DNA from: Lysobacterales bacterium
GTDB taxonomy: Bacteria > Pseudomonadota > Gammaproteobacteria > Xanthomonadales > SZUA-5
Assembly: GCA_022844165.1 (NCBI GenBank)
Contig: JALHMH010000006.1
Location: forward strand, 20,167-84,166
DNA: 64,000 nucleotides
Direction of reading: 5' to 3'
Under the pieces are notes generated by a model that worked only from the letters and a program-made list of their open reading frames with translations, was not told the origin of the DNA and did no database searches. Made by a program: the position numbers and the translations under genes. Each line of letters starts with the position of its first letter. Positions within the stretch are counted from its first letter, which is position 1. Shown in pieces: positions 5,011 through 64,000 of this stretch.

Positions 5011-5013
5011 GCC

Positions 5014-5403: not shown

Positions 5404-5624
5404 TGCCCGAACGCATCCAACTCGGTATCAGGCAATGGCTCAAAGAACGCCGGGCCGATTTTGGCCTTGCCTTTCGCTGCGCCTGGCACACGCGCAGGAA
5501 GTGCCACGGGTACCAGTCGCACAACGGGCTTTCCGGCTTTGGCAATAAGAACCTCTTCTCCCAAAAGCGCGGCGTCCAGCAGTCGGGACAGTTGCGCCTT
5601 TGCATCTTGAACGTTGACTTGCAT
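5400..5624 (-). CDS. type II antitoxin (Phd/YefM, prevent-host-death-like)
   Basis: 74 aa. MQVNVQDAKAQLSRLLD..GEEVLIAKAGKPVVRLVP is the typical antitoxin N-terminal fold pattern. Translationally coupled to vapC. Confidence 0.8.
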   Translation of the reverse strand: MQVNVQDAKAQLSRLLDAALLGEEVLIAKAGKPVVRLVPVALPARVPGAAKGKAKIGPAFFEPLPDTELDAFGQ

Positions 5625-5695
5625 GACCTTGAACCATTCTGATTGGACCAGACCATTCTAGCAGACCAAGCATCGAAACTCGCGCGGCAGCTGCG

Positions 5696-49886: not shown

Positions 49887-51410
49887 CTAACCAACCCGCA
49901 AGCGCAGCCGCAAGCCGAGTTCGTCGAAGGTGTTTTTTTCCTGCCGAAGGTCGGTCCAGGTCAACGGATGCTTGGTCAGCCAGCCGCGCGGGAATTTGAG
50001 GTCGAAGTCGCGGCCGAGGATGTTGACGGTCAGCGGTGGCAGGGCTTCTTCGCTGCGTGCACGGTGCAGGACCACGGCGAGTCGGAAAATCGCCAAGGTC
50101 TTTTGAAAACGGTCGAGATCACGTTCGGCGATGTCTTCGAAGGTGTGATCGGGAATTCCGCGGCGATGGCCGAGCACCAGCGCCGCGACGGTTGCTTGTT
50201 CTTGCCGGGAGAAGCCCGGCAAATCCGAATGTTCGATAATGTACGCGCCATGTTTGTGGTGTTGCGTATGCGAGATCGACAGGCCGATCTCATGCACCAG
50301 CGTGGCGTACAACAAGGTGTCGCGCTCTTCCTGCATCAGACCCCAGCCGGCGGCCGCCTGGTCGAACAGATTGAGCGCCGTGGCCTGCACGCGCAGCGCC
50401 TGCGCCTGATCCACGGCATAGCGTTTTGCCAGCGTGCGGATGCTGCGTTCGCGCGGATCCTGCTGTTGCTGGCGGCCGAGCGAATCGTACAACAAACCCT
50501 CGCGCATTGCGTAGTCGCTGACGCGTAACAGATCCAGATCGAGCGCCTCATAACACGCCCAAAGCGCCGCCAGACCGCCGAGGAAAATCGGTCGGCGGTC
50601 TTCGCTCAGCGACGGCAAACGTGCGCGCTGCACAACGCCCACTTCGATGACGCGATCAATCAAATCCAGCAATCCGGCGCGCGTCACTTCGCGCTCGCGG
50701 CCACCCATCGCATGCAGAATGCTGCTCAGCGACTTGACGGTTCCAGAGCTGCCGATGACACGTTTCCAGCCGCGCGCTTTGTACGCGGCCAGTATCGGCT
50801 GAAATTCGATGGACAGCCGCAACTGCGCATCTTGCCAACGTTTGCGCGTGACTTTGCCGTCGGCAAAAAAGCGCTGCGAGGTGGCTACGCAGCCGAGCTG
50901 CAGACTCTCGGTTTCCAGTGTGTCGAAGCCGCGGCCGATGATCAGTTCGGTACTGCCGCCGCCGACATCGATCACCAACTGCTGTTGGCGCGGATCGTTC
51001 AGTCCGTGCGCGACGCCCAGGTAAATCAGCCGCGCCTCTTCGCGACCGGAGACCACCTCGATGGGTGCGCCCAGCGCGGTTTCCGCGGTCATCAGGAAGG
51101 CGCGCGGCGATTTCAGCTGGCGCACCGAGTTGGTCGCCACAGCGCGAATGCGCTCCCGCGGCACATTGCTCAGGCGTTGCCCAAAGCGCGATAAACAGGC
51201 GATCGCCCGCTCGCGGACGTCCGGGTTCAGTTGCCCATCTGCGGTGAGCCCAGCGGCCATGCGGACCGAATCGCGCAGGCGGTCGACGACCTGCAGCTCA
51301 CCTTCGGAAAAACGGGCGACGATCATATGGAAACTGTTCGACCCAAGATCGACCGCGGCCAGCGGCGTACTATCGACGATGTCTTTAGGGTCGAACGGCA
51401 TTTCTATCAT
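49887..51410 (-). CDS. ppx: exopolyphosphatase (Ppx/GppA family)
   Basis: AAVDLGSNSFHM, DVGGGSTE. The ATG overlaps the ppk stop (ATGA). Confidence 0.9.
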   Translation of the reverse strand: MIEMPFDPKDIVDSTPLAAVDLGSNSFHMIVARFSEGELQVVDRLRDSVRMAAGLTADGQLNPDVRERAIACLSRFGQRLSNVPRERIRAVATNSVRQLKSPRAFLMTAETALGAPIEVVSGREEARLIYLGVAHGLNDPRQQQLVIDVGGGSTELIIGRGFDTLETESLQLGCVATSQRFFADGKVTRKRWQDAQLRLSIEFQPILAAYKARGWKRVIGSSGTVKSLSSILHAMGGREREVTRAGLLDLIDRVIEVGVVQRARLPSLSEDRRPIFLGGLAALWACYEALDLDLLRVSDYAMREGLLYDSLGRQQQQDPRERSIRTLAKRYAVDQAQALRVQATALNLFDQAAAGWGLMQEERDTLLYATLVHEIGLSISHTQHHKHGAYIIEHSDLPGFSRQEQATVAALVLGHRRGIPDHTFEDIAERDLDRFQKTLAIFRLAVVLHRARSEEALPPLTVNILGRDFDLKFPRGWLTKHPLTWTDLRQEKNTFDELGLRLRLRVG

Positions 51411-53458
51411 CCTGCAATGCGCGCCAGCAGCGCGCTCTGCGCCGCGTGCGGCATGTCGTCGCCCGCTTCGACGCGCACGTAACTGCCGTCGCTCTGCAGG
51501 CGCCACGCCTGCGTGTTGTCGGCCAGGTAGTTCTCCAGAGTCTCGTTGAAGACACGCTGTCGCAGGCTCGAATCGAGAATCGGAAAGCAGGTCTCGACGC
51601 GGTTCAACAGATTGCGTTCCATCCAATCGGCGCTGGACGCATACAGCTCTTCGCGACCGTTGTTGTAGAAATAACAGACGCGGGAATGTTCGAGAAAACG
51701 GCCGACGATGGAATACACGCGGATGTTGTCGCTGACACCCGGCACGCCCGGCCGCAGCACACAAATCCCGCGTACGAACAACACCACTTCGACGCCAGCT
51801 TCGCTGGCACGATAGAGCGCGTCGATGACCTGCGGTTCGCTCAACGCGTTCATGCGCGCCAGGATTTTTCCGCCCTTACCGGCGCGCGCGTTCTTGGCCT
51901 CGCGGTCGATCTTGTGGATCAGCTGTTTGTGCAGCGTAAACGGCGAATGCAGCACTTGTTTGAGCTTGATCGCCTGACTCAAGCCTGACAACTGCTGGAA
52001 CAGCTTGTGCACATCTTCGCCGATGTCGGTATCGGCCGTGATCAGACCGATATCGGTGTAAACGCTGCTGGTGCCCTGGTGATAGTTGCCGGTTCCCAAA
52101 TGCACGTAGCGCCTGAGCTTGCCGTTTTCGCGGCGCACGATGAGCAGCATCTTGGCGTGCGTCTTGTAACCGACCACGCCATAGACCACCTGCACGCCGG
52201 CCTCCTGCAGCCGATTGGCCAGATCGATGTTCGCCTCTTCATCGAAGCGAGCGCGCAGCTCAACGATGACGGTGACATCCTTGCCGGCGCGGGCGGCTTC
52301 TATCAAGTAGTCGACCAGCACCGATTTGCGACCGGTGCGATACAGTGTTTGTTTGATCGCCAACACATCGGGATCGTGCGCGGCGGTTTTCAGCAAATCG
52401 ACGACGGTCGAAAAACTGTCGAAAGGATGGTGCAACAACACATCCTGCTCGCGCACCATATCGAACACATTGCCGACCTTCGGCGCCTGAATCCGCGGCT
52501 TGAACGCCTGGTACTTCAAATCCGGTCGGTCGACCAGGTCGTACACCGCGCCGACGCGGTTCAAATTGACAGGCCCATTGACGCGGAACATATCGTCTTC
52601 GCTGAGTTCGAAGTGTTCCAACAGATACTGGCCCAGCGCGCGCGGGCAACTGTCGGTAATTTCCAGGCGCACCGCGCGTGCGAAGCCGCGATCGAGTAGC
52701 TCGTCGCGCAGCGCGTGCGCCAGATTTTCCACATCGAATTCGTCGACCCACAACTCACTGTTGCGCGTGACCCGAAACGGGTAGACCCCTTTGACCTTCA
52801 TGCCAGGGAACAGATCGTCGACGAAGTCCTGCAAGATGGTGCTCAGCAGCACGACATCGTGCGTGCCGTTGGAAATTTCTTTCGGCAGCCGCACCAGGCG
52901 CGGCAACGAGCGCGGCGCACGCACCAGCGCCAGATCCGCTTCGCGACCGAAGGCGTCTTTGCCCTTCAGCGCCACCGCCACATTCAAACTCTTGTTCAAG
53001 ATCCGTGGGAACGGGTGCGCAGGGTCCAGACCCAGCGGGCTCAACACTGGCATCAGCTCGTCGTTGAAATAACCCTGCAACCAGCGCCGCTGCTTCGCAT
53101 TCCACTCGTCGCGCATCAAAAAATTGATGCCCTGCGCGGAGAGTTTGGGTTTGAGTTCCTGATTCCAGGTTTGGTACTGCTCGCGCACCAGGCTCAACGC
53201 TTCGGTGCGAATCGCCGCCAACACATCAGCAGCAGTGCGTCCGTCCGGCCACGGTTTGCTCGCCAGAAAGTTCACCTGGTGGCGAATCGATGCCACCCGG
53301 ACCTCGTAGAACTCATCGAGATTGGTGCACGAAATGCACATGAAGCGCAGGCGCTCAAGCAGCGGCACACGATCATCCTGTGCCTGGGCAAGCACGCGCC
53401 GATGGAATGCGAGCAAACTGGTTTCGCGGTTGAGAAATAGGCTGGGATCGCGACTCAC
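51407..53458 (-). CDS. ppk: polyphosphate kinase 1
   Basis: 683 aa. LNRETSLLAFHRRVL N-terminus and two PLD-like HKD-type segments (KTHAKMLLIVR). Confidence 0.93.
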   Translation of the reverse strand: MSRDPSLFLNRETSLLAFHRRVLAQAQDDRVPLLERLRFMCISCTNLDEFYEVRVASIRHQVNFLASKPWPDGRTAADVLAAIRTEALSLVREQYQTWNQELKPKLSAQGINFLMRDEWNAKQRRWLQGYFNDELMPVLSPLGLDPAHPFPRILNKSLNVAVALKGKDAFGREADLALVRAPRSLPRLVRLPKEISNGTHDVVLLSTILQDFVDDLFPGMKVKGVYPFRVTRNSELWVDEFDVENLAHALRDELLDRGFARAVRLEITDSCPRALGQYLLEHFELSEDDMFRVNGPVNLNRVGAVYDLVDRPDLKYQAFKPRIQAPKVGNVFDMVREQDVLLHHPFDSFSTVVDLLKTAAHDPDVLAIKQTLYRTGRKSVLVDYLIEAARAGKDVTVIVELRARFDEEANIDLANRLQEAGVQVVYGVVGYKTHAKMLLIVRRENGKLRRYVHLGTGNYHQGTSSVYTDIGLITADTDIGEDVHKLFQQLSGLSQAIKLKQVLHSPFTLHKQLIHKIDREAKNARAGKGGKILARMNALSEPQVIDALYRASEAGVEVVLFVRGICVLRPGVPGVSDNIRVYSIVGRFLEHSRVCYFYNNGREELYASSADWMERNLLNRVETCFPILDSSLRQRVFNETLENYLADNTQAWRLQSDGSYVRVEAGDDMPHAAQSALLARIAG

Positions 53459-53561: not shown

Positions 53562-54959
53562 CTACTGATTGCCTCCCACCGCCCGCGCCAACGCTGCATA
53601 CCATTCTTGTGCGCGTTCCGGCTCCACCATCGACGCGTAGGCGACCCAGCCGCGCAGGTAAGACTGAAAATTGGGGTGTCCAGCGCGATTTTGTGCATCG
53701 AGGCCGGTTCGGGCGGCGTTATGCAGCATGGCGCGCAGGCGGCGTTTGTCGTCGCGCTTCAGGCCAACGGCGGTGTTGACCACGAGCCCGGTGACCTCCT
53801 GGCGTTGCGCCTGACCCATCACGTGGGTTTTGTCGGGATGTTCGGTGAATCCTTCGGCGTGCAATATCCGTCGCACCGCGCCCAGTAGCGGCCCCAGCAG
53901 GCTGCGATCGGGGCCGGAGAAACTGAGATCGTCGGCATACCGTGTGTAAACGAATCCAGCGCGACGGGCGAGGCCCGCGAGCCGCGCATCGAGGCGTTTG
54001 CAGATCAGATTGGTCAGCAACGGACTGGTGCACGCGCCTTGTGGCAACTGGCGCTCGCCGATGGCGATATGGAACCGGCGCTTGAGTGGATCGCCGGCGA
54101 TGGCGCCCGCAATCCGCGGCGGTTCCGTGGTCAGCAGCGCCAACAATGTGGCCACCGCTCCGGAATAACCGAACGCGCGAAACAAGCCGCGCACCCGGGT
54201 GAAGCGCACGCTGGGGAAAAAATCCTTCAGATCGAGATTCACGAGCAGCGCGCGCCCCACGTGGTTCTGCGCGTTGCTCAGGGTCGATCGGCCAGCGACA
54301 AAACCATGCGCCTGGGCGCTGGTCCCCAGCGGTGCGAGCATCGCCAGAATCCAGCGTTGGCAGGCATCGAGTGCCGGCTTCGGCGCTGAGATGGCGCGAA
54401 CACCGCCGGTCTTCTTCGGAACCTCATAGCGGTGGTAATGCACCAGCGTGGCGCCGCGTCGGTGGTAGGTCAACCAGCGCAGTTTGCCGATGCTGATGCC
54501 GAGCGCAGCAGCGAGATCGCTGGCGCTGTGCAATACCGGCAGACCGGCACGCGTGAGTTTCTGCGCATCGCTCTGCGCATCGTTCAGCTGATCGCTGACG
54601 CCGCTTCCGGCGTGCACAATGGTAGCGAGCTTGTGGGCTTGCCAGGCATCGCGCCTGGCGCGGCGATCGGCGTCGGCTTGCGCCTTGCGTAACGCGCGGC
54701 GCTTCTTGCTCTCTTCCCAGCGTCGCGCGCGTTCGGCTTTGAGCGCGGCCTGCACATCGTCGACAGTGAGCGCACTCCTGCCGATGCGCGCCAGCTCGGC
54801 TTCGATTTGTTTGCGTTCCGCGGCTTCGTCTGGCGGATCGGGCGGCAGGCCATCGGCGATCGGCCAATAACCGAGCGCCTTCATCCGCTGCAGCACGATT
54901 TGATCGTCGAGCCGCGCGAGGCGTTTGTACAAATACTGCAGGTGCTCCTGTTCGCTCAT
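53562..54959 (-). CDS. retron-type reverse transcriptase with ~140-aa charged N-terminal extension
   Basis: RT motifs PKKTGGVRAISAP, NLDLKDFFPS, LPQGACTSP, YADDLSFS. Retron-associated signatures NAQNH (NAxxH) and RQEVTGLVVN (VTG). A structured ncRNA lies immediately upstream. Confidence 0.85.
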   Translation of the reverse strand: MSEQEHLQYLYKRLARLDDQIVLQRMKALGYWPIADGLPPDPPDEAAERKQIEAELARIGRSALTVDDVQAALKAERARRWEESKKRRALRKAQADADRRARRDAWQAHKLATIVHAGSGVSDQLNDAQSDAQKLTRAGLPVLHSASDLAAALGISIGKLRWLTYHRRGATLVHYHRYEVPKKTGGVRAISAPKPALDACQRWILAMLAPLGTSAQAHGFVAGRSTLSNAQNHVGRALLVNLDLKDFFPSVRFTRVRGLFRAFGYSGAVATLLALLTTEPPRIAGAIAGDPLKRRFHIAIGERQLPQGACTSPLLTNLICKRLDARLAGLARRAGFVYTRYADDLSFSGPDRSLLGPLLGAVRRILHAEGFTEHPDKTHVMGQAQRQEVTGLVVNTAVGLKRDDKRRLRAMLHNAARTGLDAQNRAGHPNFQSYLRGWVAYASMVEPERAQEWYAALARAVGGNQ

Positions 54960-54979
54960 GGCGCACGCCCCAACCAGAG

Positions 54980-55214
54980 CGAGCGTGGCGCGGCAGCATC
55001 TTCCGACGAAGCTTGCGACGGGACCGGTCCACTAATGCGGATCGCACCCAGCCGACCAGCCCGCGGCGACCGCAGGTCGCATACCAGCAGCGGGCGCGGC
55101 TGGGTGCGATCCGAGAGTGCCGAACGGGCCCGTGAAGAAAAAGCCACAGACCAGCATGCGCGGCGTAACGCCGCACGGGTTGCGAAGACGAACAGCTCGT
55201 CCGCGCCACGCTCG
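54980..55214 (-). ncRNA. candidate retron msr-msd non-coding RNA
   Basis: A perfect 14-nt inverted repeat brackets the region (cgagcgtggcgcgg at 54980-54993, ccgcgccacgctcg at 55201-55214). An internal 74-nt hairpin (55039-55112) has a perfect 16-bp basal stem (ggatcgcacccagccg / cggctgggtgcgatcc) plus inner 6-bp and 5-bp stems. Two small hairpins lie in the 5-prime part on the minus strand (GACGA-GCTGT-TCGTC and GCGGCG-TTA-CGCCGC). The region ends 20 nt upstream of the RT ATG. Exact msr/msd ends are unknown. Confidence 0.7.
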
Positions 55215-55250
55215 ATTCTTTCTACGTCAGCCAATCTCAAGATGCAAGCC

Positions 55251-56954
55251 TCAGCCATGTTGCGCGTCCTCCTGGCCGAGCCGTTGCATATGCACCAAAC
55301 GCAAACCAAGCACATGCGGGCATGGCCCTTTGGTCAAGCCGTCGCGCAACATCTGTGCACAGGTACACGAGGCGCTCAAGATCTCGCCGCTATGGCTGAT
55401 ATGCAACTGCGGCCTGACGCGGCTGCTGCCATCGGCCGCATTGCCGGAGAGTTTGTAGCCGTCATCGACCGGACGCCGCGCGATGATCACCACGTCGCCG
55501 GCGGCGGCGATGGCTTGGGCCGCTTTGGCTTTGGGTTGGCTGGCTTCGTGTTTTTTCGCCGCCGTCAGCGCTTGTGCCGCATCGAAGGCCTGCAAGGTCA
55601 GGTCGCGGTGGCGCACGCACTCACTGCCAAGATCGATCATCGCGCGCCCGGCTTGCGCCAACAGGCTCAGCGCACTGCGGGTTTTTTCGATGCCGAATCC
55701 CAGACTCGACGCCAGTTCCGGCGTGCGCGCCCAGCGTTGCCCACGCAGCGTGGTGTACACCCGATCGAGTTCCGGCGCGGTGACTGCCAATCGCTGCGTC
55801 AACAGGTCGAATCGCCCTTCGCCCTCGACCCAGTCGTTGTCGGTCCACCCGGACAACGCCAGCGTGAACTCGATACCACATGGCAGCGCGCACACCCAGA
55901 CGCTCGGCAGACCGCTGGCCGACAGGTACACATCCACGTGTCGCGCAACGGGCAACACGCGCAACAGGCTGCGCAATCGCTCGCGCCCCCAGACGCGAAT
56001 CGTCGCGATTTTGTCGCCGCCGTACACACTGGATGGCGAGCACCAGATCGAGCGATTCCAAGGCTCCAGCACCAGCCGCACCGGTTCGCCGGGGCGCAGC
56101 TCGAAACGCAGCGCGCGTGGACTCTCGCGGGTTTTGTGTGTCAGCAAAAAGTTCAGCGCGTTGAGCACGTCGACCGGTTGCAAGCGCAGCCGGATCAAAC
56201 CCATCGACATCAATCCGTGTACCCGCAAAAAACCTTCGAGCCAACCTTCGGGCAGGTCGATACGTTTTTCCAGCGCGGTGGCATCACCGGCTTTGGGTTC
56301 GAGGCGTTCGGAAGCGAAACCGCCGGCGCCGATATCGAAGCGCGTCGCGCGATAACTGCGCAGGCGATCGAAGTGATCGGCGAGCCGCGCGCTGAAATCG
56401 ATGTTGGTAGTTCCATATTCGATCGCTTCGATGCGCTCGAACGCAGCCAGCGGCAGCGCGAGTCGACCATAACTCGACTGGTCGCGCGAAAACGCCTCGA
56501 ACGAGAGTTGATCCGGGTGCACAGTGATCACCGGGTCCAGCACCCGATTCAGTTCAACATCGCTGCTGACGGCGTATTGCATCCAGCGCTGGCGCGCAGC
56601 GTCGAAGGGTAGTCGGCGCGCCGCGCGGGCGGCGTCGAGTTCGATCAGACGCGCGTTCAATTCCGCCATCCGCGACTTCGCCGCGAGCGACTTGCTGCCC
56701 AGACTGGCGACGAATGCCTGGTCCTGGCGCTCCAGCCACGCGCGGTAAGCAAGACGCGCCTTGGGACGATATTTGTAGTCGCCAACCACCACCGAATACA
56801 GCGCAGCGAAGCTCTCGCGCGCCAGCAGCGGCTGCGCCAGCGTGCCGCGGAAAAAGGTCGCCTCGCGCAACTGGTTGGTCGCCAATGCCAGCCGCGCGTC
56901 AGCGCCGTGCATCTCGACGCCGCTGCGGCCCGAGTAGCGGTATTCGATGCTCAT
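55251..56954 (-). CDS. winged-helix + SWIM zinc-finger protein
   Basis: C-terminal SWIM signature CTCAQMLRDGLTKGPCPHVLGL (CxC..CxH) preceded by a WH-like segment (TPELASSLGFGIEKTRSALSLLAQAGRAMIDL). 4-nt overlap with the upstream ARM/HEAT gene. Confidence 0.8.
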   Translation of the reverse strand: MSIEYRYSGRSGVEMHGADARLALATNQLREATFFRGTLAQPLLARESFAALYSVVVGDYKYRPKARLAYRAWLERQDQAFVASLGSKSLAAKSRMAELNARLIELDAARAARRLPFDAARQRWMQYAVSSDVELNRVLDPVITVHPDQLSFEAFSRDQSSYGRLALPLAAFERIEAIEYGTTNIDFSARLADHFDRLRSYRATRFDIGAGGFASERLEPKAGDATALEKRIDLPEGWLEGFLRVHGLMSMGLIRLRLQPVDVLNALNFLLTHKTRESPRALRFELRPGEPVRLVLEPWNRSIWCSPSSVYGGDKIATIRVWGRERLRSLLRVLPVARHVDVYLSASGLPSVWVCALPCGIEFTLALSGWTDNDWVEGEGRFDLLTQRLAVTAPELDRVYTTLRGQRWARTPELASSLGFGIEKTRSALSLLAQAGRAMIDLGSECVRHRDLTLQAFDAAQALTAAKKHEASQPKAKAAQAIAAAGDVVIIARRPVDDGYKLSGNAADGSSRVRPQLHISHSGEILSASCTCAQMLRDGLTKGPCPHVLGLRLVHMQRLGQEDAQHG

Positions 56955-59431
56955 GCCACCGCCTCGAACGCACTGCTGAGCGTCGGAAACAGCAGTCTCA
57001 AGCGCGTCAAAGTGACGGCGATTGCCTCAAAGTCGCGTTGATTCGCGGTGCGCAATGCGGCATCCAGGATATCGATGGCGATGCGCGCCTGGCTTTCATC
57101 GCTGGCGCCGCGATCGGCGACGATGGCGAACAAACGGTCTTTGGCCGATCGCGCCAGGCGCGGCGTCAACAGGCTGGATCGCAAAAACGGCGCCAGGCGA
57201 CTGAACGCATCTGTGCCCTGCGGCCAGTGCGCGTCGAGGAGTCCGAGCGCCAGTTGGCGCATCGCCACGTGCGGGTGTTCGATGAGCCGCTGCAATAGCT
57301 GCGGTGCATCAAGATCGGACAGTCGTGCAATCACGATGCGCGTGGCGAAGGCTTGCACATCGCTGCGATTGGAATCGCACAAAGCGACCAGCGCATCGAG
57401 CGATAGCGCGGTCGCGTCGAGCCGTTGCAACAACGCAAAAGCGTGCGCGCCGTTGTCGCTGAATCGCGACTCGGCGAGTTGGATCAGCGGCCAGGGATCG
57501 ATCTGCAGCTGCGGTAAAGCGCGTTCGAGCAAAATCGCTGCCGCGCCGCGCACGCTTTGCACTTCATCTTCTGCAAGCATCGCCAGGCGCGCACTGCCGA
57601 GCAGCGTCAACGATTGTGGGTGGGCGGCGAGCAGCGCGCCACCCAGCGTGCGCTGGGTCAGCGTACCATCCTGCACCAGCGCCAGAACCTGCAGCAGCGG
57701 CAGCGTTGCCGCGGCTACGTCGGCGTAGGCGGTCAGTACCGTCAGCAGCGCCTCGTCGCGTTCACTCGGCGCCTCGCGCATGGCGTGCAGCAGGCGCTCA
57801 AGCACTGTGATGCGCGGCGCATCGTCGAGCACGGCAAGCACCGCCTGGGTGAGCTGCGCGATCGCCTGCCGACCGGCATCGGTGCGCCGACGCATCAGCC
57901 GCGGCAGTTGCGCGTGCACGATCCACACCGACGCGCTGCGGCTCAAGAACGCCTGCGCCAAAGCACGCGCCAGATCGCCACCATCGAGTAGTGCCGCGAG
58001 CAGTTTCAGATCCGGCACCGTCGCGTCGAAGCGGCGCTCGGCCTCGGCGCGCGCACTGGCGGCAATCCGCGGCGTATCGATCAGCGCCGCAAGATCGGTG
58101 GGGCTGGCGGTTGCAATCGCCTCCGGGTGGCGCATCAGTCCGTCGATACCGAACGCGCGGACCTCATCGAGCCCACCGGTGGCCAGGCTCACGAACGCTG
58201 CCGGCTTGGCATCGAAGCGATCGACGAAGGGCACGTCGGCGAGCAGCCAGGGTGTTTTGACCGCTGCCGTGTCGCGATAACACACGCGGCTCATCGCATC
58301 GACGCGTTGGCGTTTGCCTTTGCCGTGCAACAAGCGATGCAGCATCAACGCGTACACAAAAGGCGACTGCAAGGCACGCGGCGCGCGCGCATCGTCGGCG
58401 CCATAACGCCGCAGCACGGCCGCGGCGGCAAGTGGGTACAAATCGCGCCGCCAGTACGCCAGAAGGCGCAGCCAGCGCGCGCTGGCGCGACACACGTAGG
58501 CCTGCGTTTTGGCGCCGAACACCAGCGTCGATCGCGATTGCCCATCCAAGCCGCTCTTCAGCGACTGGCGCGCGCCGGCGGTGCGTGCGCGACGCCGCTC
58601 GAAGGCCAACGCCAACTCGGCAAACGTCTCAAGATCGGCGCGCAGCATCGCGCGTTTCCAAATGCTCTTGGTGTACCGCCAACGATGCGGCGCATCCCAA
58701 TCCGCCGTCGTGCGGCGCACCGCTGCGACGCACAGCGGCGTGCCGAATTCGTAGAGTTGATCGAGCACCAGGCCGCGCCGCGGCGCATCGATGCCATCGA
58801 TCGCAGCGCACAGCGCATCGACAGCGGCCTGCGCAGTCGATTGTTCGTCCAGGCCAATCAATGTTGCGCGCAACGTATCCGGCAAACGCTGCAATCCTTC
58901 GGCGCGTGCTGTCGCCAAACCCTCCGCATCGCCCAGCGCGCGCAATGCCTCGACACCCGAGCGGCGGCGCGACAGCAGCTTCTTCGCCGCCTGCTCGCGT
59001 AGTAGCGCTATGGCGCGTGTGTCGCCGATGCGTCCCAGAGCATCGACGATCACCCCGATCTCCGGCGGGTTCTTCGCCGCCAATCCGAGCAGCGCCGGAA
59101 CCGCATCCACGGCTTGCCGCCATCCCAGCGCCGTCGCCGCCAGCGCCCGTGGCTTTTGATGCAGCGATGAAAGTCGCTCGATCAGCGGCTCATGCCCACC
59201 GACTTCGGCGTAACCCGCGATCCGCAGGCGCTCGAGCACATGCTGCATCCGCGCTTGCGTTTCGGTCTGCGCGAAGGGCCCATACACGGTGCCGCCGGTC
59301 AACTGCTGCCGCGAAGGACCGGTCGCCAGGCGCAAAAGAATCTGCCCCGGCGCACTCGCGGCCTCGATCGACAGCAGCGTGTATCGCGAATGCGCTGCGG
59401 CATGCGGACTCTTGAGCAGGATCGGCGACAT
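56951..59431 (-). CDS. large alpha-helical ARM/HEAT-repeat protein with possible N-terminal WGR-like domain
   Basis: 826 aa, Leu/Ala-rich helical repeats. HEAT-like units (AVPALLGLAAKNPPEIGVIVDALGRIGDTRAIALLRE). The N-terminal ~70 aa has a beta-rich pattern ending in LERLRIAGY, reminiscent of WGR/MolR-type N-domains (tentative). Confidence 0.65.
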   Translation of the reverse strand: MSPILLKSPHAAAHSRYTLLSIEAASAPGQILLRLATGPSRQQLTGGTVYGPFAQTETQARMQHVLERLRIAGYAEVGGHEPLIERLSSLHQKPRALAATALGWRQAVDAVPALLGLAAKNPPEIGVIVDALGRIGDTRAIALLREQAAKKLLSRRRSGVEALRALGDAEGLATARAEGLQRLPDTLRATLIGLDEQSTAQAAVDALCAAIDGIDAPRRGLVLDQLYEFGTPLCVAAVRRTTADWDAPHRWRYTKSIWKRAMLRADLETFAELALAFERRRARTAGARQSLKSGLDGQSRSTLVFGAKTQAYVCRASARWLRLLAYWRRDLYPLAAAAVLRRYGADDARAPRALQSPFVYALMLHRLLHGKGKRQRVDAMSRVCYRDTAAVKTPWLLADVPFVDRFDAKPAAFVSLATGGLDEVRAFGIDGLMRHPEAIATASPTDLAALIDTPRIAASARAEAERRFDATVPDLKLLAALLDGGDLARALAQAFLSRSASVWIVHAQLPRLMRRRTDAGRQAIAQLTQAVLAVLDDAPRITVLERLLHAMREAPSERDEALLTVLTAYADVAAATLPLLQVLALVQDGTLTQRTLGGALLAAHPQSLTLLGSARLAMLAEDEVQSVRGAAAILLERALPQLQIDPWPLIQLAESRFSDNGAHAFALLQRLDATALSLDALVALCDSNRSDVQAFATRIVIARLSDLDAPQLLQRLIEHPHVAMRQLALGLLDAHWPQGTDAFSRLAPFLRSSLLTPRLARSAKDRLFAIVADRGASDESQARIAIDILDAALRTANQRDFEAIAVTLTRLRLLFPTLSSAFEAVA

Positions 59432-59441
59432 GTGCTGAGGT

Positions 59442-60152
59442 TTACTCGAACTCGCTGTCGTCGAAGTCCTCGAGGGCGCCCGCCAGAGTGGGTTTCGACG
59501 GCGTCACGCCCATGCTTTCCAGCGCTGGCGCAGCTTGCTTGCGAAAACCGCTGGCCGGTGTCAACGGGCCGAGAATGCCCTCAAGCGCCATGCGCATCTG
59601 CTGGAAGTCGCGAAACGCGTGTTCGCGGAACAGATCGTACGCCGTCCACATCAGATCGGCGCAGATTTCGGCAGGCACGCGACCCGTTTGCGCGCCCAGG
59701 CCGGGCAACGCCACGGAGCGAATCGAACCGGGTTCTTCGGTGTTCTGGATATGCACCGCCTGGAACGCTGCCGCGCACGCCAGCGCCACGTTCATGCTGG
59801 CACTGATGTCTTGATTGGACGACACCATCGTTGGCGTCGAAATCAGAAACCTGGGCTGCACGCGTTCCGTGGGCACGCACACGGCATGACCGACCGGCAT
59901 CGCACCTTGATGCTTGCGCTTGATTTCGCCTTTCACCTGATGCTCGATCTTCGCGCCCAGAAAATTCTTGATGACCAGATCGAGCCCGCCATCCATGCTG
60001 CCGGCCGAATTCGTCGGCGATACCCAGGCGCTGACCGGTTGATCGAGCATCGAACCATGCACGATCTCGACTTCTGGGTTGCCCTCAAAACTGGCGCGCC
60101 ACGCGGCGATGATCTTCGGATTAATGTCGACGAGGAGAACTTTGACGAGCAT
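59442..60152 (-). CDS. macro-domain protein (putative ADP-ribose binding/hydrolase)
   Basis: VSPTNSAGSMDGGLD (N..G.GGG-type diphosphate loop variant) and SVALPGLGAQTG (second macro loop). Only 10 nt from the ARM/HEAT gene start. Confidence 0.75.
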   Translation of the reverse strand: MLVKVLLVDINPKIIAAWRASFEGNPEVEIVHGSMLDQPVSAWVSPTNSAGSMDGGLDLVIKNFLGAKIEHQVKGEIKRKHQGAMPVGHAVCVPTERVQPRFLISTPTMVSSNQDISASMNVALACAAAFQAVHIQNTEEPGSIRSVALPGLGAQTGRVPAEICADLMWTAYDLFREHAFRDFQQMRMALEGILGPLTPASGFRKQAAPALESMGVTPSKPTLAGALEDFDDSEFE

Positions 60153-60222
60153 GGGTTTTCCAGTGATTGAACGAGCAGTCGATGTCGAGCGTTGGAAGGT
60201 CTTCGGCCGGACGCGGAGCTAC

Positions 60223-61653
60223 CTAAATCGTAAACTCAACCAAATACTCCAGGCGCTGTTGATTCGGCGAGTACACCACATACTCGTCGTCGGCGAATTG
60301 CGATGGCGAGAGCAGTTTGTGACGCACGCCGTGGCATGAATCGTAGCCCGGCGGTGGGCTTTCGAGCCCATACGTGATCTTCGTGTACGGCGCCATCTTG
60401 CCCAGCGCGACGCGCGCCAGCGCCATGAAACGCGTGCCTTTTTTGCCGGGCGTGGTGTAAAAGGCGCTGGTGCAGGCGGCGTCGCCGAAGTAGATGCCAT
60501 GGCCAAGCCATCCGGCGTCGGTGCGATTGACGCCCATACCGACCACAATCTTCGGCATCAAAATGCCGCGCGACAACAAGCCCACCCAGTTGCGAATCCG
60601 CGAGCCGTGGAACAACAACCGCTGGTTGTCGATATGCGTGGTGAACCCATCCCACTCGCCTTTGCGCTTGAGCGTGTAGATGGCTTTGACTTTGATGTTC
60701 TTGCTCTTGATCTGCGACTTCAGCACGTAGCGTTCGATTTCGTCGTAGGCACTGCCTTGACCCAAAGTGGCGACTTCGCAGTGAAGCGCCTGATATTTGG
60801 CATCGATCTCGTCCTCGAACAAGACACTGCCGGCCTCGCCGTTGACTTGCAGCATGTCTTTCATCAGCTGCAAGGTTTCTTGCTTCTGCTCGAATTCGGC
60901 GGGGGTGTCGATGACCGCTTCGGCGATCGCCTCGCGGGTGCGACCGATACGATGCGGAATGCAGGTGTAGAACTCGCCCGACAGTGCCTCGATTTTGTCT
61001 TGCAGTTTGCCGTTGGCCTTTTTGCTCGACTCGAAGATCTTGAACAGCTCGGCCAGGATCGCCTCGCCTTTTTCGATCTGCCCGAGCGTCAAAACGCCGA
61101 GCGGCGTTTCGATGCCGTTGGCCGTGATCTTGGCCGCAACGGTGTTGACCAGTGCGGTCGTGGCCTCATCGTAGATGTAGCGAATCAGCGCCTGGATATC
61201 ACCCGTCAGCGACGACGGTGGGCGCGCCGCGCGCTTCTCTTTTTCGCCCTCGATACGCTCCAGCGTCTTGGCGTCGATCTGCCCACTGGAGGCGCCGCGC
61301 GCCTTATGCGAACCGATTTTGCTCGAGGCCAGCGAAACTTCTTTGTAGCCTTTGCTGGCCCCGGTTTTTTCCCGGTAGATCTGCTGGTAACAGACTTCTC
61401 CCTCGGCGCGCGTCGCGAAGTGTCGCGTCTCACGAGCACCCGCACCGGGATTGGTTTCCAGATCATCGGTACGACCGTAATGCGTGAAGACGCGAAACTT
61501 GCCGCCGCCTTCATGCAATTCGATCGCGTAGTACTTGTTGTGATTGCTCTTGATATCGGTGACCTGCAGCACCGCCTTTTGCAGCACTTCGAAATCTTCC
61601 GGAAAGCTCGGCTCGTCGCTGGCGCCGAATTTGTAGGCTTTGGGTTTGGCCAT
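60223..61653 (-). CDS. WGR + helical regulatory domain + PARP catalytic domain protein (eukaryote-like PARP)
   Basis: WGR segment NHNKYYAIELHEGGGKFRVFTHYGRTD. HD segment LSGEFYTCIPHRIG (compare PARP1 LSNRFYTLIPHDFG). Catalytic H-Y-E residues lie in LFHGSR, GIYFGD and DDEYVVY. Confidence 0.88.
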   Translation of the reverse strand: MAKPKAYKFGASDEPSFPEDFEVLQKAVLQVTDIKSNHNKYYAIELHEGGGKFRVFTHYGRTDDLETNPGAGARETRHFATRAEGEVCYQQIYREKTGASKGYKEVSLASSKIGSHKARGASSGQIDAKTLERIEGEKEKRAARPPSSLTGDIQALIRYIYDEATTALVNTVAAKITANGIETPLGVLTLGQIEKGEAILAELFKIFESSKKANGKLQDKIEALSGEFYTCIPHRIGRTREAIAEAVIDTPAEFEQKQETLQLMKDMLQVNGEAGSVLFEDEIDAKYQALHCEVATLGQGSAYDEIERYVLKSQIKSKNIKVKAIYTLKRKGEWDGFTTHIDNQRLLFHGSRIRNWVGLLSRGILMPKIVVGMGVNRTDAGWLGHGIYFGDAACTSAFYTTPGKKGTRFMALARVALGKMAPYTKITYGLESPPPGYDSCHGVRHKLLSPSQFADDEYVVYSPNQQRLEYLVEFTI

Positions 61654-61693
61654 GTGCGTGAAAAAGCGGGCGAAGGCGGCAGACTACCTGTCT

Positions 61694-62710
61694 TCACACA
61701 CGCATTGCCAGCGCACGCAAGTCATCCGATCGTTCAACGTCGCGCACCCAGTGCGCGGGCAGGGCATCGATGCCCAAACGTGCCCCCACCAGGGCACCGG
61801 CCAGCGTCGCCAGCGAATCGCTGTCGCCGGGCGAATTGGCGCCCGCCAGGATCGCACCCGGCGCATCGTCTTTGTACCGCGCGAACAGGTACACCGCAGC
61901 AGCAATCGCCTCGTGCGCCGCCCAACCGCGCAGGCGATCGAGCGTCACCACCGGTTCCACGCCGTCGCGCGCTTCGTCGAAAGCGCGCTGCATCATGACA
62001 GCGGTTGGCGGCGAATAACGCGCCGCCGCCGAGATCATGGATTCAATCGCACGTTCCGCCGGCCAATCGTGCAACACCCGCGCAACGCCGACAGCCATCG
62101 CCGCGCTCGCTGCCAGCGCAATCGGATCGCGATGCGTCAGCTTCGAATGCGCCACCGCCCAGTCCTCGGCGCGCTGCACATCGTCCCGATACAACAGTCC
62201 GAACGGATAGGCGCGCATCACCGAACCGCAGCCACCCGCTGCCTCTCCGCCGGCCAGCTGCCAGGGCGTGCCACTGGCCAACGCGCGGCAACCGGCCATA
62301 CACGCGTTTCCTGGCGCACGATGACCGCCCTGCGGCGCCTGCGCCCAGGCCACAAATGCGCGGCTCATGCGGCGCATCGCGGCATCCAGATCTTCGTCGG
62401 CATTGCGGCTATCGAGCAGGCTCGCCAACACCGCTTCGGCCATTTGGGTGTCGTCGGTGTACGGCGCGAAACGCTGTCCACCACGCTCCCAATAAAGCTC
62501 GAAGCCGCGCACACCGTCCGATCCGTAACGCAACTCGATCTGACTCATCGACATAAACTCGGTGGGATGACCCATCGCATCGCCAATCGCCGCCCCAAGC
62601 ACGCATCCGACGACCGCTCGCTGCATCGGCCGAATCGGCGCCGCCGGCGGCGATCCGCTCACCACGGGCCACTGCAACTGCAATTGCGCGATCAGCTCAT
62701 CTGACGCCAT
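61694..62710 (-). CDS. ADP-ribosylglycohydrolase (ARH/DraG family)
   Basis: GAAIGDAMGHPTEF, YTDDTQM and GDSDSLATLAGALVGA metal-binding motifs. Confidence 0.88.
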   Translation of the reverse strand: MASDELIAQLQLQWPVVSGSPPAAPIRPMQRAVVGCVLGAAIGDAMGHPTEFMSMSQIELRYGSDGVRGFELYWERGGQRFAPYTDDTQMAEAVLASLLDSRNADEDLDAAMRRMSRAFVAWAQAPQGGHRAPGNACMAGCRALASGTPWQLAGGEAAGGCGSVMRAYPFGLLYRDDVQRAEDWAVAHSKLTHRDPIALAASAAMAVGVARVLHDWPAERAIESMISAAARYSPPTAVMMQRAFDEARDGVEPVVTLDRLRGWAAHEAIAAAVYLFARYKDDAPGAILAGANSPGDSDSLATLAGALVGARLGIDALPAHWVRDVERSDDLRALAMRV

Positions 62711-62775: not shown

Positions 62776-64000
62776 TCAGGCTGCGCCATGCAGCGACTCG
62801 CACATGGAATTGTCGAGATCCGCAAGAAATTCCGAAGCCGGTCGAACACTGGTCACCAACAAGCGCTCTCGGGCACGTGTGCTGGCGACATACAACAAGT
62901 GTCGCTCAGTGGCATAGACATTCGCCAAATCGGCCTCATCGCTGATGGCCTCGATGCGGGATTGCAGCGGAACGATCTCATCATCGCAAGCCATCACGGC
63001 AACAGCGCGGAACTCCAGACCCTTCGCCAGGTGCATCGCACCGATCGAGATAGCACCCACTGACGTATCGGCATGCTCGTCAAGTAGCTTGAATTGCAAC
63101 CCTGCCGTTGTGGCAGCGGCTTTAGCACGCTCAAGTTGCTCGAAGGAACGAACGAAAAGCGCTATTTCATGGAGCGAAATTAGCTCTCCAGCGCGTGCAC
63201 ATAGCCACTGCGCAACATGCGCTATCTCCTGGGCTTCGCTATCGAAGCACCGAATGATTGGCGCGGGCCCGTTAAACACCGAGATAGTGCCGCGGCGGCT
63301 ATCGGTATTGCCGTCGACATCGGAAATTTCCTCGTCAAGCAGACGATCGGCCTGGATTCGAATTTGGTGGGACGTGCGGTAATTCACCTTCAGCGTACGC
63401 GAGCGACCGCGCACATCGACACCCAGTGTGGCCCAAGAAAAAGGCGTCTGGAAGATCCGCTGCCCCAAATCGCCGGCGAAGAACAGCCCATTCGCGTGAT
63501 CGCCCGATAAGGCCGCAAGGAAGCGCAACTGCGCGACGCTAATGTCCTGCGCCTCGTCGATTACCGCATGCTGATAAGGTCGATTCGCTTGCTGCTGTTC
63601 GGCAAGCCGGTGGAACATTGCCGCCCGCGTCATCAACTGAGCCGTTTCAAGCGCTTGCCAGACGCGCTCGAACACCTGCCACAACGCGGCACGCTGCGCC
63701 TCGTTGAGCCGCGTCTTGCGTCCCAAACGCTTGACGTCGCGATAGGCTTCCCAAGTGCGCAACTGCCAGGCGTCGACGATCTCCTGCCACTCCTGGCGCA
63801 CGAACGCGACATTGAATCGAAGATTCTCGCCGCGCGTCGCGCCTGCGAGCATTTGCGCAACGTCTGCGTCGCTCGCCAAAGAGCCGCGCTTGCCGAAGAG
63901 CCGCTCGCCGAGAGCGTCCATAGCGTACACATCGATGCGCTCGCCGAGCCTGGGCTGAGCTTTGATGAGCTTGCGCAAACGATTGTGCAGCGCGTTGGCG
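62776..64000 (-). CDS. UvrD/Rep-like superfamily 1 helicase, N-terminus beyond window
   Basis: VIDEAQDIS (motif II), FFAGDLGQRIF, NYRTSHQI, HLAKGLEF and YVASTRARERL (motif VI). The reading frame stays open to the window edge. Confidence 0.8.
   Translation of the reverse strand, partial: ANALHNRLRKLIKAQPRLGERIDVYAMDALGERLFGKRGSLASDADVAQMLAGATRGENLRFNVAFVRQEWQEIVDAWQLRTWEAYRDVKRLGRKTRLNEAQRAALWQVFERVWQALETAQLMTRAAMFHRLAEQQQANRPYQHAVIDEAQDISVAQLRFLAALSGDHANGLFFAGDLGQRIFQTPFSWATLGVDVRGRSRTLKVNYRTSHQIRIQADRLLDEEISDVDGNTDSRRGTISVFNGPAPIIRCFDSEAQEIAHVAQWLCARAGELISLHEIALFVRSFEQLERAKAAATTAGLQFKLLDEHADTSVGAISIGAMHLAKGLEFRAVAVMACDDEIVPLQSRIEAISDEADLANVYATERHLLYVASTRARERLLVTSVRPASEFLADLDNSMCESLHGAA

What the first reader, a model, noticed from the sequence alone, without database searches (positions are those of the whole stretch)
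54980..55214. Intergenic RNA with textbook retron msr/msd geometry upstream of the RT
The track shows no believable coding ORF here; only a shadow ORF crosses it. The 291-nt SWIM-RT spacer contains a perfect 14-nt inverted repeat pair 207 nt apart (54980-54993 / 55201-55214), consistent with retron a1/a2 pairing. The 5-prime arm on the minus strand ends in GG, a candidate branching-G region. Two short hairpins follow it (msr-like). Then comes a 74-nt extended hairpin at 55039-55112 with a 16-bp perfect basal stem (msd-like). Palindromes ACGGGCCCGT (55124-55133) and GGACCGGTCC (55021-55030) are also present. The exact priming G and the msDNA ends cannot be read from sequence alone.
Basis: partly seen in the sequence, partly recalled or inferred. 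Interest (0 to 1): 0.75.

Follow-up and report, generated by a model that had tools for sequence, protein, structure and literature searches.

The report
Type XIII retron msr-msd RNA gene
The 291-base gap in front of the reverse transcriptase gene holds a genuine retron non-coding RNA, the template for a small satellite DNA; it belongs to the already described type XIII retron family, so it is real but ordinary.

Summary
The minus strand of 54980-55214 carries a perfect 14-nt inverted repeat, seen in 1 of 2000 shuffles, and a long central hairpin. It lies between a SWIM gene (PADLOC SWIM_XIII, 5e-154) and a retron RT (RT_XIII, 1.5e-150), with a HEAT/ARM gene upstream, which is a type XIII retron.

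A covariance model built from six related loci finds the same RNA in more than 50 of the 87 related loci searched, across many phyla. Almost all matches lie on the RT strand, upstream of the RT gene. In 45 sequences, 91.9% of cells pair, against 58.7% when shuffled and about 40% when slid. Compensatory changes occur in 74 of 78 pairs.

Two details change:
- **Priming G:** it is probably not the GG that ends the 14-nt arm. The better candidate is the family-invariant G at 55183, just after a conserved 5-bp helix (55188-55184 / 55003-54999) and opposite G 55004.
- **msr hairpins:** only one is conserved (55176-55158).

The predicted msDNA is the plus strand 55005 to about 55133, roughly 129 nt. 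It is a new member of a known kind.

Side observation: a PARP-Macro-ARH gene set is tightly linked to this retron subclade and is absent from PADLOC.

The parts
55201..55214 (-). a1, the 5' arm of the terminal stem (CGAGCGUGGCGCGG). The model extends it weakly outward to about 55224.
   Evidence: Perfect complement of 54980-54993. All 23 pairs of this helix show changes on both sides across 45 loci, with 90.8% of cells paired. In 37 of 41 loci, a locus's own flanks pair better than its 5' flank does with any other locus's 3' flank.
55189..55200 (-). Variable linker, or internal loop, between a1 and the inner helix.
   Evidence: Length and sequence differ among the six closest loci, and most of it is absent in L087 and L088.
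55184..55188 (-). Inner helix, 5' strand (UCUUC). It pairs with 54999-55003.
   Evidence: 91.7% of cells paired and all 5 pairs show changes on both sides in 45 loci (helix 2). RNAalifold recovered it de novo on a plain MAFFT alignment of 14 loci (columns 63-66 / 248-251).
55182..55183 (-). Predicted priming (branching) G at 55183, followed by C at 55182. This is the family-wide NGC motif, here UCGC.
   Evidence: G in 43 of 45 and C in 42 of 45 aligned loci. It sits immediately 3' of the inner helix and opposite G 55004. Relatives read UAGC, UUGC or UGGC at the same position. The review PMC6868368 places the priming G in TAGC, CAGC, GAGC or ACGC at the inner end of the stem.
55158..55176 (-). 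msr hairpin (GUGCGGC GUUAC GCCGCGC).
   Evidence: 99.4% of cells paired. Four of 7 pairs show changes on both sides. Frequent G-U pairs show that the RT strand is the one that folds (helix 3).
55134..55157 (-). Single-stranded 3' part of msr, ending in the conserved UC-A that leads into the msd stem.
   Evidence: Conserved ...CAUC-AC block. The distance from the G to the base of the msd stem is 50 nt in nearly all of the 45 loci.
55018..55133 (-). msd long interrupted stem-loop. It includes the 16-bp perfect stem 55039-55054 / 55097-55112 and both 'palindromes'.
   Evidence: Helices 4-9, most of them 92-99% paired (helix 4 85.6%; the 2-pair helix 5 only 60%), with nearly every pair showing compensatory changes. 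Recovered de novo. Mapped to window coordinates.
55004..55017 (-). 3' end of the msd template (55005-55017). It holds the predicted first templating C at 55005 and the unpaired G at 55004 opposite the priming G.
   Evidence: C in 37 of 45 and G in 38 of 45 loci; most of the exceptions are one-column alignment shifts of the same ACGAAG string. The geometry matches canonical retrons, but the assignment is an inference.
54999..55003 (-). Inner helix, 3' strand (GAAGA).
54980..54993 (-). a2, the 3' arm of the terminal stem. It ends 20 nt before the RT start codon.
55005..55133 (+). Predicted msDNA: about 129 nt of single-stranded DNA, with a 13-nt 5' tail and a 116-nt hairpin.
   Evidence: Inferred from the priming geometry. 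Folded as DNA it gives -49 kcal/mol, z = -7.5 against shuffles. The 3' end is assumed to lie at the base of the msd stem.
53562..54959 (-). Retron reverse transcriptase, 465 aa, with the N-terminal extension typical of this clade.
   Evidence: PADLOC RT_XIII 1.5e-150. Pfam RVT_1. NAQNH, VTG and YADD are present in the translation. All the significant PDB relatives are retron RTs; a group II intron RT is the only, marginal, exception (6.6e-06).
55251..56954 (-). Type XIII SWIM protein, 567 aa.
   Evidence: PADLOC SWIM_XIII 5.3e-154. The C-terminal CTCAQMLRDGLTKGPCPH matches CxCx12CxH. A homolog lies next to the RT in 73 of 89 loci.
56951..59431 (-). HEAT/ARM accessory protein, 826 aa. Its stop overlaps the SWIM start by 4 nt.
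   Evidence: PADLOC WGR_XIII 2e-69 and HEAT-ARM_XIII 1.5e-43. Pfam HEAT_2.

Best explanation
This is the msr-msd gene of a type XIII retron, read on the minus strand in the same direction as the RT.

Shown here: the RNA's two ends pair. That terminal stem has the 14-bp a1/a2 core, an internal loop, and then a conserved 5-bp helix, UCUUC/GAAGA.

Inferred by analogy with characterised retrons:
1. The RT binds the folded RNA.
2. It primes from the 2'-OH of the unpaired G at 55183.
3. It copies the msd template starting at C 55005, through the long stem, to about 55133.
4. Host RNase H removes the copied template.

The product would be a branched RNA-DNA molecule whose DNA part is a hairpin of about 129 nt.

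Also inferred: this msDNA-RT complex is the sensing or regulatory partner of the co-encoded SWIM and HEAT/ARM proteins. What those proteins do is not known.
For: - **Gene context:** PADLOC assigns RT_XIII, SWIM_XIII and WGR/HEAT-ARM_XIII to the three adjacent genes. The retron RT motifs and the SWIM CxCx12CxH motif are present. PDB relatives of the RT are retron RTs.
- **Sequence conservation:** the spacer is conserved in loci whose RTs are only 60-72% identical.
- **Small alignment:** RNAalifold on 6 loci gives 78 pairs, 26 of them with compensatory changes.
- **Family-wide search:** covariance model R1 matches more than 50 of the 87 related loci searched. Almost all matches are on the RT strand and upstream of the RT gene.
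- **Pair counts on 45 loci:** 91.9% of cells paired, against 58.7% shuffled and 37-43% slid. Changes on both sides occur in 74 of 78 pairs, and 0 of 500 shuffles reach the observed values.
- **Independent alignment:** a structure-blind MAFFT alignment of 14 loci gives the inner helix, the msr hairpin and the msd stem de novo.
- **Alignment-free test:** a1/a2 complementarity is locus-specific in 37 of 41 loci.
- **Priming site:** the G and C after the inner helix, and the CG opposite, are nearly invariant.
- **Spacing:** the G-to-msd-stem distance is 50 nt, and the msd template is 125-133 nt, in nearly all members.
- **Product:** the predicted msDNA folds as one long DNA hairpin, z = -7.5.
- **Literature:** type XIII includes the msDNA-producing retrons Mx162, Mx65, Sa163 and Ne144 (PMC7736814).
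Against: - No msDNA has been observed for this locus.
- The priming G rests on conservation and geometry only.
- The motif here is UCGC, not the common UAGC. The nearest published variant is ACGC in Vc81.
- The window's a1/a2 duplex is the weakest of its close relatives: a 14-bp core at -42.8 kcal/mol, against -50.8 to -70.2 for the other five.
- The single-sequence minimum-energy fold does not pair a1 with a2.
- No sigma-70-like promoter or terminator was found around the element, so its transcription start is unknown.
- The alignment used for the main pair count was fitted to the model structure.
- I could not align an experimentally mapped type XIII ncRNA such as Mx162 directly.
- No Rfam family matches.
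Confidence: 0.9

Rival explanations
1. A structurally intact but inactive relic: the RNA still folds, but this copy no longer makes msDNA.
For: The a1/a2 stem is the shortest and weakest among its close relatives. No promoter-like site was found.
Against: The RT is full length with all catalytic and retron-specific motifs. Every conserved position of the RNA is kept, including the G, the opposing CG and the 50-nt spacing. All three protein genes score end to end against their PADLOC models.
Confidence: 0.06
2. A template RNA for a non-retron defence RT (a DRT/UG-type ncRNA). It would be copied by a different mechanism, such as rolling or repeated cDNA synthesis without 2'-5' priming.
For: It is a structured ncRNA upstream of an RT inside what looks like a defence neighbourhood. 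There is a weak NCBIfam Drt2 hit (1e-05, 24.9 bits against a cut-off of 390).
Against: All the best RT matches are retron classes. NAXXH and VTG are present. The RNA has the retron-specific terminal stem with opposed G residues.
Confidence: 0.02
3. Chance GC-rich palindromes, a REP-like intergenic repeat or a transcription terminator between two genes.
For: The region is 66% G+C, and in the closest relatives one frame stays open across it.
Against: A perfect repeat of at least 14 nt arises in 1 of 2000 shuffles. No terminator-like site was found. Only one full-length copy exists in the 64-kb window. The element travels with the RT across phyla and shows compensatory changes.
Confidence: 0.01
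4. A small protein-coding gene: the 119-aa ORF 54956-55315 on the minus strand, or the 134-aa gene called across the spacer in L084.
For: An open frame spans the spacer in the six closest loci. A gene caller predicted one in L084.
Against: The homologous element has stops in all six frames in lower-GC relatives. Substitutions follow base-pair complementarity, not codon position.
Confidence: 0.01

Closest known systems
Type XIII retrons (Mestre et al. 2020, RT clade 10): Retron-Mxa1 (Mx162), Retron-Mxa2 (Mx65), Retron-Sau1 (Sa163), Retron-Nex2 (Ne144)
   Same: - RT with an N-terminal extension that scores best against PADLOC RT_XIII.
- SWIM protein with CxCx12CxH.
- HEAT/ARM protein with a WGR-like region.
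- msr-msd placed directly upstream of the RT.
- Long terminal inverted repeats, one msr hairpin and a long msd hairpin.
- The RNA model also matches upstream of the RT in cultured myxobacteria: Archangium (L016, L026) and Hyalangium (L030).
   Different: - The predicted msDNA is about 129 nt, against the published 162, 163, 144 and 65 nt.
- The priming-G motif is UCGC, against the published CAGC or GAGC.
- The RT is only about 42-45% identical to the cultured myxobacterial loci retrieved.
- The locus carries an extra PARP-Macro-ARH gene set.
- I could not retrieve the Mx162 sequence itself for a direct alignment.
Retron-Eco1 (Ec86), the best characterised retron, type II-A
   Same: It is the closest solved RT (1.3e-39). 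The general RNA plan is the same: an a1/a2 stem ending at an unpaired priming G that faces an unpaired G, with the first templating base just 5' of that second G. This comparison rests on established knowledge of Ec86.
   Different: - Ec86 has a different effector, an NDT-like protein.
- Its RT is shorter (320 aa) and has no N-terminal extension.
- Its msDNA is shorter (86 nt).
- There is no sequence similarity between the two ncRNAs.
Retron-Vch2 (Vc81) priming motif
   Same: Its priming G lies in ACGC rather than TAGC, which is the closest published motif to the UCGC found here.
   Different: It is a type II-A retron, and its RNA and effector are unrelated to those here.

Membership tests
Retron msr-msd ncRNA | Lies next to, and on the same strand as, a retron-clade RT with the NAXXH, VTG and YADD motifs. 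| tested here: met
   NAQNH, EVTG and YADD are present in the translation. Retron RT models give the best hits. The RNA ends 20 nt before the RT start.
Retron msr-msd ncRNA | Terminal inverted repeats a1/a2 that pair the two ends of the RNA. | tested here: met
   14-bp perfect core. All 23 pairs covary in 45 loci. Complementarity is locus-specific in 37 of 41 loci.
Retron msr-msd ncRNA | A conserved unpaired G at the inner end of the a1 strand, facing an unpaired G on the a2 side. | tested here: met
   G 55183 is conserved in 43 of 45 loci, and the opposing CG at 55005/55004 in 37-38 of 45. This shows position and conservation only, not chemistry.
Retron msr-msd ncRNA | One to three short hairpins in msr. 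| tested here: met
One hairpin, 55176-55158, with 99.4% of cells paired.
Retron msr-msd ncRNA | A long stable stem-loop in msd. | tested here: met
   The stem 55018-55133 is supported by compensatory changes. Its DNA fold has z = -7.5.
Retron msr-msd ncRNA | Production of msDNA joined to the RNA by a 2'-5' phosphodiester bond. | not testable with these tools
   Needs expression, gel analysis, debranching and RT-DNA sequencing.
Type XIII retron (Mestre 2020) | RT belongs to clade 10. | tested here: met
   PADLOC RT_XIII 1.5e-150 over residues 4-459; the next model, RT_other, scores 8.8e-106. No tree was built.
Type XIII retron (Mestre 2020) | [quoted passage not shown] | tested here: met
   SWIM_XIII 5.3e-154. 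The motif CTC-x12-CPH is present at the C-terminus.
Type XIII retron (Mestre 2020) | A HEAT/ARM repeat accessory protein, often with a WGR-like domain, encoded upstream of the SWIM gene. | tested here: met
   WGR_XIII 2e-69 and HEAT-ARM_XIII 1.5e-43. Pfam HEAT_2. Its stop overlaps the SWIM start by 4 nt.
Type XIII retron (Mestre 2020) | The ncRNA is homologous to that of an experimentally validated member (Mx162, Mx65, Sa163 or Ne144). | tested here: inconclusive
   Model R1 matches upstream of the RT in Myxococcaceae MAGs and in Archangium and Hyalangium genomes.
Any Rfam family | Reaches the family's gathering score. | tested here: not met
   The best match was mir-1295 at 25 bits against a gathering score of 100, which is only a generic hairpin match.
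DRT/UG defence RT with ncRNA | RT belongs to a UG/DRT class. | tested here: not met
   Drt2 scored only 24.9 bits against a cut-off of 390. All strong hits are retron models.

The most novel reading that the evidence does not exclude
The retron may be only the nucleic-acid-making half of a larger seven-gene system conserved in this subclade: ARH, WGR-PARP, Macro, HEAT/ARM (WGR-like), SWIM, msr-msd and RT.

In that reading, a PARP-type ADP-ribosyltransferase is controlled by, or acts on, the branched hairpin msDNA. Its WGR domain is the domain that reads DNA ends in eukaryotic PARPs. The Macro and ARH enzymes would reverse the modification. That would make it a retron-gated ADP-ribosylation immune or stress system.

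Support from gene order:
- The PARP-Macro genes sit in tight operon order with the retron in 12 of 13 loci of the subclade that have enough flank.
- ARH-RT fusion proteins exist.
- PARP and ARH are absent from the PADLOC models and from the main text of the 2020 classification.

Whether the link is functional, and whether it has been published elsewhere, was not established.
Probability: 0.3. Interest if true: 0.7.

Novelty: new member of a known kind. Interest (0 to 1): 0.3.

Why it matters
For the finding itself, little changes. It confirms that a reader working from raw sequence can recognise a retron ncRNA, and it adds one more type XIII retron to a family already in defence-system catalogues.

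Three things are useful beyond that.
- **Testable predictions:** the analysis gives a precise priming G (55183), template start (55005) and msDNA (about 129 nt) for a retron type that has no solved structure. I also found no reported function or phage-defence test for it in the papers I searched.
- **Fixed spacing:** the RNA has strikingly constant spacing across phyla, 50 nt from the G to the msd stem and 125-133 nt of template. This would help anyone annotating or engineering these retrons.
- **PARP-Macro-ARH linkage:** this gene set could point to what type XIII retrons actually do.

Tried and rejected
- **Single-sequence RNA fold of the spacer:** stable (z = -3.5), but it does not pair a1 with a2. 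It was set aside in favour of the comparative structure.
- **Small hairpin from RNAalifold on 6 loci:** a hairpin at alignment columns 236-249, within CUUCGUCGGAAGA. I replaced it with the UCUUC/GAAGA helix. That helix is 91.7% paired with covariation in 45 loci and appears de novo on an independent alignment.
- **Possible GC...GC pairing:** RNAalifold on the 45 loci also proposes that the conserved G and C (55183/55182) pair with the GC after the msr hairpin. Those columns never vary, so this cannot be tested. It is left open.
- **Rfam search:** only sub-threshold miRNA-like hairpin matches.
- **Promoter and terminator scan:** nothing found.
- **Getting the Mx162 locus for a direct alignment:** two further protein searches from myxobacterial RTs and one contig look-up did not reach Myxococcus xanthus. 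The supplements of PMC7736814 are not held. A text search for the conserved hairpin sequence found nothing relevant.
- **Identifying the source organism:** the proteins are singletons from one unnamed NCBI contig.
- **Literature on retron plus PARP:** nothing relevant. The library is incomplete, so this does not prove novelty.

Full report
**1. What is in the sequence**

All the genes around the finding lie on the minus strand. Read in the direction of transcription, they are:
- an 826-aa ORF (56951-59431);
- a 567-aa ORF (55251-56954);
- a 291-nt gap (54960-55250);
- a 465-aa ORF (53562-54959).

A perfect inverted repeat of at least 14 nt arose in only 1 of 2000 dinucleotide-preserving shuffles of the spacer.

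The central hairpin 55039-55112, with its perfect 16-bp base, is also real. It sits inside a longer imperfect stem spanning 55018-55133 (I1). Both 10-nt palindromes are present.

**2. The neighbouring genes identify the system**

| Gene | Evidence |
|---|---|
| 465-aa RT | Pfam RVT_1. Best match to PADLOC RT_XIII, 1.5e-150 over residues 4-459. |
| 567-aa protein | PADLOC SWIM_XIII, 5.3e-154. |
| 826-aa protein | PADLOC WGR_XIII (2e-69) and HEAT-ARM_XIII (1.5e-43). Pfam HEAT_2. |

The RT translation contains the retron-specific NAXXH (NAQNH) and VTG motifs and the YADD catalytic box. The SWIM protein ends in CTC-x12-CPH, which is the CxCx12CxH motif given for type XIII (PMC7736814). The RT's significant relatives among solved structures are all retron RTs: Ec86, Ec67, Kva2, Ec78, Ec83 and Eco8. 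A group II intron RT trails at 6.6e-06. None of these is type XIII, and the SWIM protein has no solved relative.

According to PMC7736814, type XIII (RT clade 10) contains the classical myxobacterial retrons Mx162, Mx65, Sa163 and Ne144. It has its own ncRNA structure class.

**3. Is the spacer a conserved RNA?**

I collected two sets of related loci:
- 80 from genomes, with RTs 36-59% identical;
- 9 from metagenomes through the closest RT homologs, 60-72% identical.

The spacers of the closest loci align over their whole length with the window's. Visible double substitutions keep both the terminal stem and the long hairpin. RNAalifold on these six sequences predicts 78 pairs, 26 of them with compensatory changes. 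A sequence-only profile already reaches the region upstream of the RT in Myxococcaceae, Sandaracinaceae, Polyangiales, Archangium, Hyalangium, Bradyrhizobium and Isosphaeraceae.

Covariance model R1, built from the six sequences, matched more than 50 of the 87 related loci searched (L004-type short contigs included, L082 and L084 left out). Apart from reverse-strand echoes of the palindromic msd hairpin and a few marginal hits, every match is on the RT strand and upstream of the RT gene.

**4. Tests of the structure**

*Pair counts.* These used the 45 best matches; the results are.

| Measure | Observed | Control |
|---|---|---|
| Cells forming a standard pair | 91.9% | 58.7% shuffled; 37-43% with partners slid 1-3 columns |
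| Pairs with a change on both sides | 74 of 78 | shuffled mean 61.3 |
| Shuffles reaching the observed values | 0 of 500 | |

That alignment was fitted to the model, so I ran two independent checks.
- A plain MAFFT alignment of 14 diverse loci, folded de novo, recovers the inner helix, the msr hairpin and the msd stem. Of its 50 pairs, 34 show compensatory changes. It misses the outer a1/a2 stem, as expected, because those arms share no sequence between loci.
- In an alignment-free test, each locus's 5' flank forms a more stable duplex with its own 3' flank than with the 3' flank of any other locus in 37 of 41 cases. The four exceptions are near-identical sister loci.

*Strand.* G-U pairs are common in the msr hairpin (helix 3). 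On the opposite strand they would be A-C mismatches, so the folding strand is the RT strand.

*Coding potential.* The element has stop codons in all six frames in its lower-GC relatives. The open frame seen in the GC-rich close relatives is therefore a shadow ORF.

**5. Anatomy in window coordinates**

| Feature | Coordinates (minus strand) |
|---|---|
| a1 | 55214-55201 |
| Variable linker | 55200-55189 |
| Inner helix | 55188-55184 (UCUUC) pairing with 55003-54999 (GAAGA) |
| Unpaired G, then C | 55183, 55182 |
| msr hairpin | 55176-55158 |
| Single-stranded msr tail | 55157-55134 |
| msd stem | 55133-55018 |
| msd template tail | 55017-55005 |
| Unpaired G | 55004 |
| a2 | 54993-54980 |

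The RT start codon follows at 54959.

**6.

Those bases are paired stem positions and they covary. The nearly invariant G of the family lies 18 nt further on, at 55183. It is G in 43 of 45 loci and is followed by C in 42 of 45. It sits directly after the inner helix and faces a conserved C-G at 55005/55004.

Relatives read UAGC, UUGC or UGGC at this position, and the window reads UCGC. The review PMC6868368 states that the priming G lies at the inner end of the stem, within TAGC or variants such as CAGC (Mx162, Sa163), GAGC (Mx65) and ACGC (Vc81). From established knowledge of Ec86, a G facing a G, with the first templating base just 5' of the second G, is the canonical retron arrangement. I therefore assign the priming G to 55183 and the first templated base to C 55005. 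This is an inference from conservation and geometry, not a demonstration.

The other falls in a linker that differs in length and sequence among even the closest loci.

*Palindromes.* The two palindromes are the opposite strands of the basal msd helix (helix 4).

**7. Predicted product**

Across the 45 loci, the distance from the conserved G to the base of the msd stem is 50 nt in almost every case. The stretch from the base of the stem to the templating C is 125-133 nt.

PMC6868368 reports an 8-base overlap between the msr and msd of Mx162. From memory of the older literature, the branching G of Mx162 is 57 nt from the 3' end of its RNA. If that holds here, the RNA would end at about 55126 and the DNA at about 55133, the base of the stem.

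The predicted msDNA is then the plus strand 55005-55133, 129 nt. Folded as DNA it forms a single long hairpin with a 13-nt 5' tail, at -49 kcal/mol and z = -7.5. The exact 3' end is uncertain.

**8. Mechanism**

*Shown:*
- an RNA structure conserved with covariation, carrying all the sequence-level retron hallmarks;
- its position directly upstream of an intact retron RT, next to the two accessory genes that define type XIII.

*Inferred by analogy with characterised retrons:*
- priming from the 2'-OH of G 55183 and copying of msd;
- removal of the template by RNase H;
- a branched RNA-DNA product that stays bound to the RT.

*Unknown:*
- what the SWIM and HEAT/ARM proteins do;
- what triggers the system. 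I found no functional test of a type XIII retron in the papers searched.

*Points against full activity of this copy:*
- it has the weakest a1/a2 duplex among its close relatives;
- no recognisable promoter was found.

**9. Novelty**

The kind is known. Type XIII retrons, their accessory proteins and their ncRNA class were described in 2020, and PADLOC recognises all three proteins. A 2026 survey lists type XIII as abundant and the most broadly distributed retron group. The element is not in Rfam. This locus is a new member of a known kind, and the interest score is modest.

**10. Side observation**

Three more genes lie immediately upstream, on the same strand and with short gaps:
- an ADP-ribosylglycohydrolase (61694-62710);
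- a WGR-PARP_reg-PARP protein (60223-61653);
- a Macro-domain protein (59442-60152, only 10 nt from the HEAT gene).

The order PARP-Macro-HEAT-SWIM-ncRNA-RT recurs in L083, L086, L087 and L088. It also recurs in myxobacterial and planctomycete loci of the same RT subclade. Among loci with at least 50% RT identity and enough upstream flank, 12 of 13 have it, against none of about 50 more distant type XIII loci.

An ARH gene flanks the RT in L082, L086 and L089, and two RT homologs are ARH-RT fusions. PARP and ARH have no PADLOC model, and the main text of PMC7736814 does not mention them. This suggests an ADP-ribosylation module attached to one type XIII subclade. I did not establish whether the link is functional or whether it is already published.

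Noticed in passing
window 59442-62710 (minus strand); also L083 1024-3377, L086 278-2563, L087 1216-3405, L088 1209-3400: An ADP-ribosylation gene set lies directly upstream of the retron genes, in the same operon-like order: ADP-ribosylglycohydrolase, WGR-PARP_reg-PARP and Macro. It is present in 12 of 13 loci of this RT subclade that have enough flank, and in none of the more distant type XIII loci. PARP and ARH have no PADLOC model, and the main text of the 2020 retron classification does not mention them.
   Followed up: partly
proteins P0087 (780 aa) and P0119 (779 aa); L082 1564-2640, L086 8608-9711, L089 1584-2627: Two RT homologs are fusions of an ADP-ribosylglycohydrolase domain with the retron RT. 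In three close loci an ARH gene sits right next to the RT. This strengthens the link between ARH and this retron subclade.
   Followed up: no
L029 2664-2902 and 4113-4353; L055 875-1130 and 1292-1551; L015 995-1260 and 1286-1557; L039 2915-3170 and 3185-3434; L021 5303-5563 and 5650-5911: Several distant type XIII loci carry two full-length copies of the msr-msd RNA in tandem upstream of a single RT. This implies two different msDNAs from one RT.
   Followed up: no
alignment A4 (45 loci): Spacing in the RNA is almost fixed across phyla even though the sequence diverges. The conserved G is 50 nt from the base of the msd stem, and the msd template is 125-133 nt. None of the published type XIII msDNA lengths (65, 144, 162, 163 nt) matches this.
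   Followed up: partly
L056 3762-4024 (ncRNA), 4052-5671 (SWIM), 6307 (RT); L075 3712-3974 (ncRNA) with the RT at 6001: Gene order varies. In L056 the ncRNA lies upstream of the SWIM gene rather than between SWIM and RT. In L075 about 2 kb separates the ncRNA from the RT.
   Followed up: no
L090 1-6721: A more distant type XIII locus from a 9.9-Mb assembly has a WGR plus beta-propeller protein and an ATP-dependent DNA ligase upstream of a 1042-aa protein, the SWIM gene and the RT. WGR domains therefore recur around type XIII retrons in different architectures.
   Followed up: no
window 62776-63978 (minus strand): A 400-aa UvrD-like helicase ORF whose best PADLOC matches are GajB of Gabija (2e-17). 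It sits next to the ARH gene. It seems to lack the N-terminal part of the helicase, so it may be a fragment or have a miscalled start. It hints at a defence island.
   Followed up: no
window 49887-53458 (minus strand): Polyphosphate kinase (51407-53458) and a Ppx/GppA exopolyphosphatase (49887-51764) lie directly downstream of the RT. These are housekeeping genes, so the retron operon ends at the RT.
   Followed up: no
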